Shown: positions 4,380 to 24,873 of the stretch, piece by piece
Numbering within the stretch: position 1 is the first letter of the stretch
Layout: each line of letters opens with the position of its first letter
Assembly (NCBI GenBank): GCA_964016885.1
Contig: OZ024746.1
Location: 17,174,001 to 17,238,000 of the forward strand
From: Eledone cirrhosa
Taxonomy: Eukaryota
Reading direction: 5' to 3'
DNA: 64,000 nt
Position numbers and translations under genes: made by a program
Notes under the pieces: generated by a model
Databases searched by the model: none
Told to the model about the DNA's origin: nothing
What the model saw: only the letters and a program-made list of their open reading frames with translations

Positions 4380-4417
4380 ATGGAACAACAACTGATTGAT
4401 AGTATTAGAGATTGGAG
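4380..4417 (+). CDS. Csk-like kinase exon 1 ([12 protein letters not shown])
   Basis: ATG at 4380, in-frame TAA upstream at 4323-4325, perfect AG|GTAAGT donor, phase 2 matches the next exon. Confidence 0.65.
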
Positions 4418-7400
4418 GTAAGTTACGGCTTCTGTAACCTTTTTGTCAATATCTATATGCTTACGTGAAAACCTGCGCAATCTTGACTAGTTTTGTCTAA
4501 TGCCTCGTGAATAAACAAAACTCTAGAGTAACAGAATTCTGTCTTGACCTTATATATGCTGTTTACCATATATACCTGTAGACATTACACGTGTATATAC
4601 ATATGTACCTGTAGGAAACACGTATATAATATATATGAGGATATCTCTTAAGTGGTTGCTTGATCGAGTTGAAATAGTATCCAAATATCGCTCAAATAAC
4701 ACCATACTATTTTAAAGACGGAAGGCCATTAAATAATATAATAGAAGATAAACTTTGAACTAAATAAAATGTCTGGATGGTCACAATTGGAATGCATTCA
4801 ATCATATGTGCTGGGACTTGACAAAAAAATTAAAGTTTAAGGGATAAATCCTCTATTATAAAAAATATAGGCGAATGTAGATAAGACTGTGACATTTCAA
4901 CTATTTTAAAAGTGGCGAATAGTAATTCACACGTTTCGGTTGCCAGTGTATTCAAACCCTTACACACAGCATAAATATACGAGACTTTCATAAAGAAAGG
5001 GAAGACCACTTTCCACAATATGGTCCGGGATTCACTGTCTGGAGAAAAAAAGGGCTTATCTATCATTAACTATCGACCTCTTTTAAAGTAAATAAAAATA
5101 TCTTGTCCGGTTCATTGGATTTATTGTTTTGTATACAGATTAGAATTAGCTTTAAAGTTAGGGTTCCCTCGTCGATTAGTGTGCATGGGAGCAGTGTCCT
5201 CAATCACACCTTCCAGAATCTCCTGTCGGAAGCAACCGCCTACAATTGATCCGGCTGGATCCCCAAGCGACAGCAGCCGAGCTCAGGATCTCCTGCCGGT
5301 TTGTTTTGCCCGTAAGATCTGCAATTCTTTCCTAATACATTCTAACCACATGTCCATAGTATCGGAGTTGTGATCGCTCAACTTGGAGAAGATATTTTGC
5401 TGATAGAAGTAGCAGCTCTATCTGGAGTGACTTTCTGATCTCCGAGCCACGCACTCTATCGAGTAACATTACTCCAAAGACACTTCAGTGGCTTGTATTT
5501 CAGATCGTTTTCTTTTCCCTCAACAGTAATTTACTAGAGACAAAAACATTTCAGTTCAAATTCTATCTATTTACCAAGAAAATCGAAAGATGCAACATAT
5601 TCCAGTAAACCCATGAACCATCTATATCTGTTCCATTCAATTCTCATGTTGATGCAGTTGTTGTTAACATGAAATTCAGCTCTGATTAAACAGATTTATC
5701 AGAAAAAGACATTCTAGCCCCGACAGTTCCGTTATTGGATGAAAGAGTAGGTAGAGATGACCAAGGGGGTTACTAGAAGAGGGGTGTGTGATGACTTAGA
5801 ACAGAGGTTCTCAAAGTGGGCGCTACCGCCCCCGCCCTCCTGGTTGCATTGAGAAGGTCCAGGGAGCGGTGGGGCTAGAGAAAAAGAAGGTGTTTGGGAG
5901 GAAGGAGTGGTTGGACGTGTCATGAAAGTGAACACATCCTTAAGTGTGAAAGTTTGTCTCGCTAAACTTATGTATAAGCGTTCCATTCAACACGGAGTTT
6001 TTTTCCAGTTTCCTTGTCTGCTTTTGAAAAGGACGGGAAACTTCCAGGCGAGGATCTGCTTGTCTTTTGCTCCCACCTCACTGAACTGCACGAAGATATG
6101 GATTGACGAGTTCATGATCTGTTTGCTCTTCGAGTCGCTGAATGGATTATCAGCCCCTTCATTGACATATCGGAAGAAGAGAGTCGATAGTTAGAAGAGG
6201 AGCTGATACTATTCAAAATGACATTAAGTTGAAGCCTAAATTCCGCAAGTGCTATTAAGAATGTTGGCTTCAAAAGGCTATCCAGAGCTTTGGAAGAAAG
6301 TGAAATTGTTCTTCATTGCCTTTCCAACATCTTATTTGGTTGAAAGAGGATTCAGTGTGATCACTGGCCTTCTTACAAAGCAGCAGAGCAAGCTCTGAAT
6401 TACGGAGCATGGAGATCTCAGACTTATTCTTAGTACAATTCAGCCTGAGATTGAGAGGCTACTTTCACTCCACTAAACTCATCCCTCTCATTGAACCCCC
6501 TCCCTATAAACCTATCTGGGCGGGCTGTTTTAGTGGTATATTATTGACACCTCCAATACGCGTTGTAAATATGCGTTGTGCATTGAGGGTGAATCGAAGG
6601 GGGAGTGTTGAGAAGAGGGAGTGATGAGCGAGAAGATGGAGTGATGAGCGAGAGGGTGAAGAAAAGGGGGAGTAGTAAGAGGATGAAGAGAAGAGGGAGT
6701 AGTGAGAGGATGAAGAGAAGAGGGAGTAGTGAAAGGGTGAAGAAATACTGCAAGGCATCTTGTCTGATCCTCTTATTTTATTTATTGACCCTGAAAAAAT
6801 GGAAAATAAACTTGACTTTAGAGGGATCTGAACTCTGGGTACAAAGAACCAGAACAAATACTGCAAAGTTTTCTATATAATGCACTGCTTACTGTACCAA
6901 TTCACAATTATATAAAAGATGAGGTATCATTGACAATAGAAAATTAAAATGAAGAATATGATAATCATCATCATCATTTTATGTCCTCTTTTCCCTGCTT
7001 GCAAGGGTGGGAAGGGTCCTATTCAGCATAGCATCTCTCCACTTGTCACGGTCCCTGAGCTTCAACAATCTGAGGTTTTTCGTGGTCTTCCTCTACTGTG
7101 TCTCCCTTCTACTGCGATTTCTTGGCACTTCTTTACCTAGCGGTCATCCTCCATGCGCATCACATGCCCATACCATCTGTCTTCTCTCCTGCACACCACA
7201 ACTTATCCCTCTTATACCTAGTTTCTCTCGCAACTCATCTATAATATCTTGTCTAATTAATGGTTTCTGATTTAGACACAAGGGCAACAATTTTGGGGGG
7301 AGGGGAAAGTCGATTAAATTGACCCCAGTGCATTACTGGTACTTTATTTTATCGACCCCTTATGAATGAAAAGCAAAGTTAACCTTGGTGGGATTTGAAC

Positions 7401-24100: not shown

Positions 24101-24873
24101 TTACATAGAACGGGGTGGGGGGGGGTGTATTTTGTTAGAGATGCCTACTGGCAAGGCGGGTCTTCTCTGTTACTGAGTACCGCCAAAGGTCTCGGTCCAG
24201 TGACATTGTCTTGGAGAGGTGTAAGTGTGTGAGGTCGGAGTTTATCAGCTCATCCCATGTTTTTCTAGGTCTGCCTATTCCGTGGCTACCGTCTATCTTT
24301 ATTGCCCTGCACTTTGTTATACAGCTATCGACTTTCATGCGCATCACATGTCCATACCAACGTAGCCTTCTCTCGAGTAAACAACATCTGATCCCTCTTA
24401 TCTCTAATTTTTTCCTTAGTTCGTTTATGCTTTGCCGTTCACGTATATTACTGTTACACATCCAGCGGAGCATGCAAGCTTCGTTCCTCTCTAGTCTGCG
24501 TATATCCTCTGCACACAATGCCCAGGTCTCACTACCATGCAACATTGCTGTTCGTATGCAGGCATCGTACAACCTGCCTTTCATTTTTAGGGAGAACCCT
24601 TTAGCAGCTAATAGTGGTATAAGCTCTCTGAACTTATATATATATATATATAATGTACCATACATTTTGAATTGAAATTTTAATTTCTTTCCACAGCCAT
24701 CAGTCAAAATTTCAAGTTATATCAATGAGGGTAACAGGTTGGTAATACCCAATGAATGCCTTCTCCCTCTACGAAGTATCATCGAGAATACTTGGAATAT
24801 AAATCCATCTGAACGAAAAAGTTTTGATGAAATCTATCAAAATCTGGTTTTTGTTTTTGGTACTTATGTCTGA
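4380..24873 (+). CDS. Divergent Csk-family non-receptor tyrosine kinase (SH2 + kinase, no SH3 seen); 9 coding exons, 374 aa
   Basis: Exons 4380-4417, 9319-9538, 11500-11650, 13265-13364, 16760-16915, 18507-18606, 20383-20478, 22748-22834, 24697-24873 join in frame (1125 nt) with GT-AG introns. SH2 WFH...YLLRES; kinase VAVK, alpha[14 protein letters not shown] (Csk hallmark), [11 protein letters not shown], short Tyr-free activation loop, [17 protein letters not shown]. Confidence 0.9.
5802..6494 (+). mobile_element. Degenerate hAT (Buster/Charlie-type) DNA transposon remnant
   Basis: CAGAGGTTCTCAAAGTGGG terminus preceded by an nnnTAnnn site (ACTTAGAA); transposase C-terminus [26 protein letters not shown]...GDLRL...H*THPSH* with internal stops. 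Confidence 0.85.
6960..7245 (-). mobile_element. RTE LINE 3' fragment (same family as 27440-30546)
   Basis: (GAT)n tail and close match to 27440-27730. Confidence 0.75.
7262..7484 (-). mobile_element. tRNA-derived SINE with Nin-like core and 11-bp TSD
   Basis: B-box GAGTTCAAATCC and TTTTCATTC...GGGGTCGATAAAATAAAGTACCAG core on -; TSD GTCTAATTAAT at 7251-7261 and 7485-7495. Confidence 0.8.
7560..7890. repeat. Minisatellite, 36-46-bp unit GTGCAGAGCATTGTTGATCCATGTGTGTATATGTGT
   Basis: About 9 tandem copies. Confidence 0.9.
8640..9240. repeat. Minisatellite, 34-36-bp unit GTGAGCTGAGTATTGTTGATCT(CT)GTGTGTACAT
   Basis: About 17 tandem copies ending about 80 bp before the SH2 exon. Confidence 0.92.
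9319..9538 (+). CDS. Csk-like kinase exon 2 (SH2 domain)
   Basis: ttttag acceptor; [15 protein letters not shown]...GSYLLRES...VKHYRL...[11 protein letters not shown] donor at 9539. Confidence 0.9.
10640..11190 (-). mobile_element. Degraded RTE LINE ORF fragment
   Basis: Similar to 28800-29220 (WKCYHERL..., EGPAIE). Confidence 0.65.
11500..11650 (+). CDS. Csk-like kinase exon 3 (SH2 end, linker, Gly-rich loop)
   Basis: cattttag acceptor; [17 protein letters not shown]...[20 protein letters not shown] donor. Confidence 0.85.
13265..13364 (+). CDS. Csk-like kinase exon 4 (VAVK, alphaC)
   Basis: [34 protein letters not shown]; acag acceptor, GTAAGG donor. Confidence 0.9.
16760..16915 (+). CDS. 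Csk-like kinase exon 5 (hinge, alphaD)
   Basis: [51 protein letters not shown]; ttgcag acceptor, GTAAG donor. Confidence 0.92.
16998..17225 (+). mobile_element. tRNA-derived SINE with Nin-like core
   Basis: GAGTTCAAATCC B-box, TTTGCCTTTCATCCTTACGGGGTCGATAAAATG core, (ATT)n tail. Related copies near 18655-18805, 26750-26880, 30552-30735, 42845-43040, 47900-48090 and 51570-51720. Confidence 0.8.
17894..18375. repeat. TA/TG-rich compound microsatellite
   Basis: Low-complexity TATG/TA runs. Confidence 0.92.
18507..18606 (+). CDS. Csk-like kinase exon 6 (catalytic loop)
   Basis: [33 protein letters not shown]; ctccag acceptor, GTGAGT donor. Confidence 0.93.
18809..19238. mobile_element. piggyBac-like MITE with a nested tRNA-SINE fragment
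   Basis: TTAA|CCCTTTAGCATTTA...TAAATGCTAAAGGG TIRs; a shorter copy without the insert lies at 61703-61909. Confidence 0.75.
19440..19885 (-). mobile_element. RTE-family 3' fragment ([20 protein letters not shown] + long 3' UTR)
   Basis: Same family as 23810-24632 and 31040-31780; (GAT)n tail. Confidence 0.8.
20383..20478 (+). CDS. Csk-like kinase exon 7 (DFG to APE)
   Basis: [32 protein letters not shown]; cacag acceptor, GTAAGT donor. Confidence 0.93.
20600..21740 (-). mobile_element. Degraded RTE LINE RT / C-terminal fragment
   Basis: Aligns by eye to 27600-28870, including RT motifs and PHD remnant [15 protein letters not shown]. Confidence 0.75.
22748..22834 (+). CDS. Csk-like kinase exon 8 (alphaF)
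   Basis: [29 protein letters not shown]; ttcag acceptor, GTAAGT donor. Confidence 0.93.
23810..24632 (-). mobile_element. 5'-truncated RTE LINE (intact C-terminal ORF piece + 3' UTR)
   Basis: KFRELIPLL...[17 protein letters not shown]...[12 protein letters not shown]...GRPRKTW; (GAT)n tail. Confidence 0.9.
24697..24873 (+). CDS. Csk-like kinase exon 9 (C-lobe end, stop)
   Basis: [58 protein letters not shown]; ccacag acceptor. Confidence 0.9.
   Translation, partial: PSVKISSYINEGNRLVIPNECLLPLRSIIENTWNINPSERKSFDEIYQNLVFVFGTYV

What the first reader, a model, noticed from the sequence alone, without database searches (positions are those of the whole stretch)
4380..24873. SH3-less, non-RD, Gly-loop-degenerate paralogue of Csk with an intact ORF
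Seen: nine exons splice to an uninterrupted 374-aa protein with only 13 residues before the SH2 domain and an in-frame stop upstream of the ATG. The Gly-rich loop is VNKGEHS, the catalytic loop is HCDLAARN, and the gatekeeper is Leu. VAVK-Lys, alphaC-Glu, catalytic Asp/Asn and DFG are kept. Established: canonical Csk is SH3-SH2-kinase with IGKGEFG, HRDLAARN, a Thr gatekeeper and a short Tyr-free activation loop. As I recall them, several intron positions here match vertebrate CSK. Inference: this is a lineage-specific Csk duplicate with altered regulation or reduced activity. It may be an undescribed second tier of Src-family control in cephalopods.
Basis: partly seen in the sequence, partly recalled or inferred. 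Interest (0 to 1): 0.75.

Follow-up and report, generated by a model that had tools for sequence, protein, structure and literature searches.

The report
Octopod SH3-less second Csk kinase
Octopuses and argonauts carry a second, fast-evolving copy of Csk, the enzyme that switches off Src kinases; it has lost its SH3 domain but kept its catalytic core and most of its Src-docking patch, so it is likely a weaker, differently targeted brake on Src, and a very young Csk copy beside it in this genome has the same shortened design.

Summary
Nine GT-AG exons give an open 374-aa SH2-kinase. One public contig is spliced across the first four introns and has in-frame stops in its leader. The gene is a tandem duplicate of canonical Csk, which lies upstream; all eight intron phases match. 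Orthologues exist in Argonauta and three Octopus species, all without SH3 and with HCD, so it is octopod-wide and already annotated as 'CSK'. Its kinase domain is 56-64% identical across deep species pairs, against 96-98% for Csk. Catalytic residues and the alphaD Src-docking arginines are invariant; SH3-coupling Trp188, docking Arg389 and outer Gly-loop glycines have decayed. Best reading (0.5, untested): a low-activity, SH2-targeted Src-tail kinase. Rivals: a Chk-like non-catalytic binder, new substrates, or local decay. SH3 loss is common in insect Csk and the gatekeeper change is ordinary; HCD is unique among the Csk-like rows examined. Head-to-head upstream, a 96%-identical Csk copy has taken this gene's first exon and rebuilt the SH3-less design. 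Nine literature searches found no description. Verdict: new variant of a known kind.

The parts
4250..4379 (+). 5' leader of exon 1, with in-frame stops at 4290-4292 and 4323-4325 and two short upstream ORFs (ATG at 4272 and 4289)
   Evidence: Covered by the spliced contig of X1; stops and uORFs
4380..4417 (+). Exon 1 coding part: 12-13-residue leader that replaces SH3 and the SH3-SH2 linker; similar leader in Argonauta and O. vulgaris orthologues; copied at about 95% into upstream gene B
9319..9538 (+). Exon 2: SH2 domain (220 nt, as in the canonical SH2 exon of Csk); betaB5 Arg, betaB7 Ser and betaD4 His kept, alphaA2 Arg changed to Pro
11500..11650 (+). Exon 3: SH2 end, SH2-kinase linker (Phe183 and Trp188 positions are Leu) and degenerate Gly-loop (only the middle Gly kept)
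13265..13364 (+). Exon 4: beta3 Lys and alphaC Glu
16760..16915 (+). Exon 5: Leu gatekeeper, hinge and alphaD Src-docking motif RSRGR
18507..18606 (+). Exon 6: catalytic loop HCDLAARN (Cys codon TGT against CGG in Csk)
20383..20478 (+). Exon 7: DFG and 17-residue Tyr-free activation segment
22748..22834 (+). Exon 8: alphaF and alphaF-alphaG loop (Phe382 kept, Arg384 to Lys, Arg389 lost)
24697..24873 (+). Exon 9: end of the C-lobe and stop codon; no Src-type tail
24874..25049 (+). Inferred 3' UTR with AATAAA at 25024
4060..4445 (+). Promoter and first-exon block found twice in the genome search: here and, inverted, as the 5' end of gene B (G000:C6:17169416-17169795, minus strand)

Best explanation
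This is an octopod-wide tandem duplicate of Csk ('Csk2') that replaced its SH3 exons with a short leader and is likely a catalytically competent but low-activity kinase that would still phosphorylate the inhibitory tail of Src-family kinases, at sites chosen by its own diverged SH2 domain. Shown: the duplication beside Csk, SH3 loss, splicing, orthologues, and which residues are kept or lost. Inferred: (1) ATP binding and phosphotransfer survive, because Lys222, Glu236, His312, Asp314, Arg318, Asn319, DFG, Gly204 and the R-spine are invariant; (2) turnover is lower, because SH3, its partner Trp188 and the outer Gly-loop glycines are gone; (3) the HRD arginine is dispensable, because Csk has no activation-loop phosphosite for it to bind; (4) Src kinases are still docked through Arg279, Ser280, Arg281, Arg283 and Phe382, more weakly without Arg389; (5) without SH3 it cannot recruit PEST-type phosphatases, so it is a partial, separately localised brake.
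For: Catalytic and alphaD docking residues are identical in 5 of 5 orthologues although the kinase domains are only 56-64% identical across deep pairs. 59 of 96 family-conserved kinase columns are kept in all four lineages, against 26 of 148 other columns. PMC10016382 (parts 1-4 of 9 read): Arg279, Ser280, Arg281, Arg283 and Phe382 are specifically needed for phosphorylating Src; Arg68-Trp188 mediates SH3 activation and its loss costs over 10-fold; Csk has no activation-loop phosphosite. PMC5547543 (abstract and section 30): in Chk the alphaD arginines are not needed for non-catalytic binding, so keeping them points to catalytic docking. Src-like last exons with the docking Glu and a tail Tyr were seen in 2 of 8 own-genome kinase loci fetched (L027, L033). 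The model of the O. vulgaris orthologue has pLDDT 86.6 and best matches Csk; kinase rmsd 1.5 A to 3d7u.
Against: No activity or binding data. Of the five basic docking residues only three are kept, one is Lys and one is lost in all five orthologues. Keeping five docking residues is unremarkable if the baseline is the 61% retention of conserved columns (about 0.1 by simple product) and striking only against the 18% baseline. 37 of 96 conserved columns are changed in at least one lineage, and Gly202 is Gly in 185 of 187 comparison rows but lost in 4 of 5 orthologues. The window's copy has the longest branch (1.04) and extra losses: Phe206, His245, Pro388, Pro431. Nearly all amino-acid change against Csk lies on the Csk2 side, so the pairwise dN/dS of 0.43 (CI 0.29-0.59, dS near saturation) understates the rate on that lineage. 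No measurement of a Csk Arg313 mutant was found.
Confidence: 0.5

Rival explanations
1. Csk2 is a convergent Chk (MATK): a poor catalyst that inhibits Src-family kinases mainly by tight binding, or a near-dead decoy competing with Csk for SH2 ligands.
For: Non-RD loop, decayed Gly-loop and lost Trp188 in all orthologues. Linker Phe183 is Leu, as in the Matk-type row. The SH2 specificity position 127 is Ile in O. vulgaris and O. sinensis, as in Chk (PMC10016382). Chk is the precedent for this division of labour (PMC5547543).
Against: Every catalytic residue is invariant in 5 of 5. The alphaD arginines, dispensable for Chk's non-catalytic action, are invariant. Position 127 is Lys, Thr or Phe in the other three orthologues.
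Confidence: 0.22
2. Csk2 has moved to new partners, such as diverged octopod Src-like paralogues or non-Src substrates in a specialised tissue (for example gametes), like the lineage-specific SH2-kinase-only kinases of nematodes.
For: Very fast evolution: O. vulgaris against O. bimaculoides 83% in the kinase domain, against 98% for Csk. SH2 surface positions vary among orthologues. Diverged Src-like tails exist in the genome. Feature neighbours in the ESM Atlas include nematode SH2-kinase clusters (a lead only). The link to sperm is recalled, from no call.
Against: The Src-docking patch is kept. No tissue data were available.
Confidence: 0.18
3. In this lineage the gene is under relaxed selection and is being replaced by the young SH3-less Csk copy (gene B) that took over its first exon.
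For: Longest branch and unusual composition, extra losses of conserved residues, and gene B intact with the same promoter block.
Against: Open 374-codon frame, spliced transcript at depth 92, all catalytic and alphaD residues kept; neutral drift over this branch would have broken the frame. Expression of B was not tested.
Confidence: 0.1

Closest known systems
C-terminal Src kinase (Csk; PDB 1k9a, 3d7t; octopus XP_029633373.1)
   Same: SH2-kinase fold, eight intron phases, 17-residue Tyr-free activation segment, no regulatory tail, alphaD docking motif, all catalytic residues
   Different: No SH3 or SH3-SH2 linker; Trp188, Phe183, Gly202 (4 of 5), Gly207, Thr266, Arg313 and Arg389 changed; 39% identity from SH2 onward (141 of 360); far faster evolution
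Csk-homologous kinase (Chk/MATK) of vertebrates
   Same: A second, diverged Csk-family gene; Leu in the linker at the Phe183 position; altered SH2 specificity position
   Different: Chk keeps SH3 and HRD and arose independently; Matk rows form their own clade apart from Csk2; non-catalytic inhibition is shown for Chk and untested here
SH3-less Csk of insects, crustaceans and some mites, and SH3-less Csk copies of unionid mussels (P0049, P0059)
   Same: SH2-kinase architecture without Pfam SH3
   Different: They keep HRD and, in the rows aligned, Trp188 and most of the Gly-loop; P0059 groups with mussel Csk, so it is an independent loss; some are unverified gene models
Non-RD kinases (for example plant EFR and XA21, PKD with HCD)
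   Same: No Arg before the catalytic Asp
   Different: Unrelated kinase groups; seen only as search listings; they show only that non-RD does not mean dead

Membership tests
Csk family | Closest sequence and fold is Csk; groups inside the Csk family | tested here: met
   phmmer 1k9a E 8e-91 against Abl 1e-70 for the O. vulgaris orthologue (a two-domain EGFR construct scores higher by repeat); Foldseek ranks 1-5 are 1k9a; inside Csk against two Src-like outgroup rows, SH-aLRT 97 (quick tree)
Csk family | SH3-SH2-kinase architecture | tested here: not met
   No SH3 in the window gene or in 4 of 4 orthologues scanned; the only SH3 exons in 264 kb belong to gene A. Many accepted Csk orthologues also lack SH3, so this does not exclude membership by descent
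Csk family | Short activation segment without Tyr; no C-terminal regulatory tail | tested here: met
   17 residues and no Tyr in 5 of 5, same as Csk
Csk family | Src-docking residues Arg279, Ser280, Arg281, Arg283, Phe382 | tested here: met
   Identical in 5 of 5
Csk family | Basic alphaF-alphaG docking residues Arg384 and Arg389 | tested here: not met
   Arg384 is Lys in 5 of 5; Arg389 is His, Gln or Gly
Csk family | Shared exon-intron structure with Csk | tested here: met
   8 of 8 phases match gene A; exon sizes 220/220, 151/169, 100/103, 156/159, 100/100, 96/96, 87/87, 177/177
Csk family | Phosphorylates the tail Tyr of Src-family kinases | not testable with these tools
   Needs a kinase assay
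Chk/MATK | Orthology to vertebrate MATK | tested here: not met
   Three Matk rows form a separate clade (100*); Csk2 is a local tandem duplicate of octopod Csk
Chk/MATK | Tight non-catalytic inhibition of Src-family kinases | not testable with these tools
   Needs binding and inhibition assays
Pseudokinase | Loss of beta3 Lys, catalytic Asp or DFG Asp | tested here: not met
   All three are invariant in 5 of 5
Octopod-born duplicate of octopod Csk | Sister to octopod Csk in trees | tested here: inconclusive
   Best careful tree joins them at 55/90; the two octopod Csk rows are the sister in 471 of 1000 bootstraps; 8 of 60 octopod-derived columns are shared; with long outgroups the clade sits near the base

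The most novel reading that the evidence does not exclude
Octopods independently evolved their own Chk: an SH3-less, non-RD Csk paralogue that restrains Src kinases largely without catalysis or in a separate compartment. The design is useful enough that this genome has built it again, by fusing the Csk2 promoter and first exon to a fresh copy of Csk. The locus would then hold a three-step natural series (Csk, young SH3-less copy, old SH3-less non-RD copy) showing how a kinase sheds its regulatory inputs.
Probability: 0.2. Interest if true: 0.62.

Novelty: new variant of a known kind. Interest (0 to 1): 0.42.

Why it matters
Csk is the master off-switch for Src kinases, and the known second family member (Chk) is vertebrate. 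An independent octopod paralogue would be a convergent second tier of Src control. It is also a natural test of two biochemical questions: whether the HRD arginine matters in a tyrosine kinase with no activation-loop phosphosite, and how Csk works without SH3 activation. Genes A, B and C at one locus give matched constructs for those assays. The reach is specialist: nothing ties it yet to an octopus trait.

Tried and rejected
SH3 exon for this gene: none found in the window or in 264 kb apart from gene A's. A long-range splice from A's second SH3 exon to exon 2 would be in phase (88 kb) and is not excluded, but the observed contig uses exon 1. Processed pseudogene as the source of the spliced contig: the own-genome search with exon 5 gave only three Csk-like places, all in intron-bearing genes. 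Word-based search with the SH2 exon found nothing; the HMMER search with exon 5 found the orthologues. No RNA holder was on record; X1 is read as RNA only from its splicing. Fer, Abl, Tec or Src identity: rejected. Gatekeeper as a special feature: rejected. Decapodiform orthologues: none seen, but no named squid Csk appeared among the 120 listed of 137 hits either, so absence is not shown. The 187-row comparison set accidentally contains one Csk2 record (P0204), which accounts for its 1% Cys at position 313. The careful 48-row tree did not finish and the quick tree is reported; the 26-row careful tree left out the long outgroups, nematodes, flatworm, rotifer, Matk and gene B. One search cut the SH2 exon of genes A and B short; one search corrected it and its numbers are used. 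No complex prediction was run: no full octopus Src was in hand and the pair would pass by likeness to 3d7t. Literature searches found no description of this gene, and none of six accessions appears in the library; subscription papers and supplements were not seen and could list it in kinome tables.
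Full report
Observation. Exon 2 is an SH2 domain and exons 5-9 hit the tyrosine kinase family. Exon 5 matches Csk best among solved structures, E 1.4e-8 against 9e-7 for the next protein. A 1457-nt contig of run X1 skips the first four introns exactly and begins in the leader at 4250, so two in-frame stops precede the ATG in that transcript. 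The three other runs show no such joints in the listed rows.

Locus. The window is G000:C6:17174001-17238000. Upstream lie two more Csk genes. Gene A (plus strand, C6:17069189-17135819) is canonical Csk with two SH3 exons and two alternative SH2 exons; including both gives a stop at residue 160. Gene B (minus strand, 17169481-17153206) is an open 389-aa copy of A from the SH2 exon on (355 of 369 residues identical, dS 0.025, 14 replacement and 6 silent changes). Its first exon and promoter block are a copy of the window gene's (353 of 371 aligned bases), and the genome search found that block only at these two places. The two start codons are 8.9 kb apart, head to head. The window gene shares all eight intron phases with A but only 141 of 360 residues, with dS about 1.3, so it is an old duplicate. 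GART exons lie downstream on the minus strand.

Orthologues. A HMMER search with exon 5 returned O. bimaculoides (P0121) and Argonauta hians (P0124, 374 aa) as the best single-kinase hits. A search with P0124 added O. vulgaris (P0206, 373 aa), and its cluster added O. sinensis (P0320). Their accessions are consecutive with canonical Csk in three species, and the O. bimaculoides pair lies on contigs of identical length. None has SH3; the O. bimaculoides model P0204 has a different, non-SH3 N-terminus. They form a clade with the window protein (100/100). The best tree makes the clade sister to octopod Csk, weakly (55/90), and long outgroups pull it toward the base. Tandem position, introns and 8 of 60 shared octopod-derived residues favour a local duplication, at the latest in the common ancestor of argonauts and Octopus. 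Squid and cuttlefish are untested.

Anatomy (mammalian Csk numbers by offsets; states). Invariant in 5 of 5: Gly204, Ala220, Lys222, Glu236, Met240, Leu251, His312, Asp314, Arg318, Asn319, DFG, Trp352, Pro355, Glu356, Asp368; SH2 Arg107, Ser109, His128; docking Arg279, Ser280, Arg281, Arg283, Phe382. Changed in all: Arg313 to Cys, Gly207 to Ser or Cys, Thr266 to Leu (Met in O. sinensis), Phe183 to Leu, Trp188, Glu127, Arg384 to Lys, Arg389, Ser367 to Cys, Tyr403 to Asn. Gly202 is lost in 4 of 5. Among 278 fetched proteins with a catalytic-loop match, 264 have HRD and 8 HCD; six of the eight are Csk2 records and two are unrelated long proteins. Kinase identity between this genome and Octopus is 58-60% for Csk2 and 98% for Csk. 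Selection is nevertheless structured: 59 of 96 conserved columns against 26 of 148 others are kept in all four lineages. An AlphaFold model of the O. vulgaris orthologue (54-row alignment, pLDDT 86.6) matches Csk best; the window's own spliced protein was not folded.

Mechanism. The review PMC10016382 (parts 1-4 of 9) states that Csk recognises Src through Arg279, Ser280, Arg281, Arg283 and Phe382, that its kinase domain needs SH3 and SH2 for activity, that Arg68-Trp188 carries the SH3 effect (over 10-fold), that SH3 recruits PTPN12 and PTPN22, and that there is no activation-loop phosphosite. Csk2 has dropped the SH3 circuit (domain, linker, Trp188) and kept the catalytic and main docking sets. 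PMC5547543 (abstract and section 30) shows that Chk inhibits by tight binding without needing the alphaD arginines. I therefore favour a weak but active tail kinase with its own SH2 targeting (0.5) over a Chk-like binder (0.22), new partners (0.18) or local decay (0.1). That the middle Gly is the most important of the Gly-loop three is recalled, from no call. PMC3764022 (passages) notes Arg313 next to the mobile activation loop and Phe183 as an allosteric site, but gives no mutant activity. Src-like last exons with a Glu docking position and a tail Tyr were seen in L027 and L033, 2 of 8 loci fetched; the mapping of their spacing to Src numbering is partly recalled.

Against this reading. Two of five basic docking residues are altered. 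Retention of the patch is only suggestive against the conserved-column baseline. The window's copy is the most degenerate of the five. The pairwise dN/dS of 0.43 averages a nearly static Csk branch with a fast one and rests on near-saturated dS.

Comparison and novelty. SH3-less Csk models are common in insects and crustaceans and occur in unionid mussels, so the architecture is not new. The combination of SH3 loss, HCD, decayed outer Gly-loop and kept docking patch in a conserved second gene was seen in no other Csk-like row examined. The gene is in NCBI under automatic Csk names. Nine searches found no paper describing it. PMC8662651, PMC10312003 and PMC9780368 were read as passages only; the first has no mention of octopus. 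Supplements were not read. An earlier scan note on the alternative SH2 exons of gene A agrees with what I saw.

Verdict. A real, spliced, octopod-wide Csk paralogue; a new variant of a known kind; interest 0.42. Function is untested. The young gene B makes the locus a ready comparative series.

Noticed in passing
G000:C6:17153206-17169481 minus strand (L017-L019), ending 4.5 kb before the window: Gene B: intact 389-aa SH3-less chimera of the window gene's first exon and a 96%-identical inverted copy of Csk, with a new C-terminus and Pro-to-Gln and Ile-to-Thr changes beside Arg389. Expression and assembly support untested.
   Followed up: partly
G000:C6:17103245-17103470 and 17109018-17109237 (L012, L013): Two alternative SH2 exons in canonical Csk; both isoforms are in Octopus records. 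Csk2 and gene B match the second in length (220 nt).
   Followed up: partly
window 4181-4210: Strong donor-like sites on the minus strand just upstream of exon 1, kept in the gene B copy; may mark a divergent transcript from a bidirectional promoter.
   Followed up: no
window 18507-18606 and 22748-22834: Arg313-to-Cys co-occurs with Ser367-to-Cys in all five orthologues; whether the two cysteines are close enough to pair was not measured.
   Followed up: no
window 33829-39376, minus strand: Exons of the purine-synthesis gene GART (AIRS_C and formyltransferase hits), tail to tail with Csk2; a synteny marker.
   Followed up: partly
window 27810-30480, minus strand: Broken LINE-type retrotransposon with endonuclease-like and reverse-transcriptase-like ORF pieces (identified by eye).
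   Followed up: no
window 55251-58645: Long tandem array of a 30-bp unit with open repetitive frames on both strands.
   Followed up: no
P0049 and P0059: Unionid mussels have SH3-less Csk models that keep HRD; in Sinanodonta the locus tag is adjacent to full-length Csk, suggesting an independent tandem duplicate.
   Followed up: partly
L027, L028, L033: Diverged Src-like kinases; L027 and L033 keep a tail Tyr, while the last exon of L028 ends without one.
   Followed up: no
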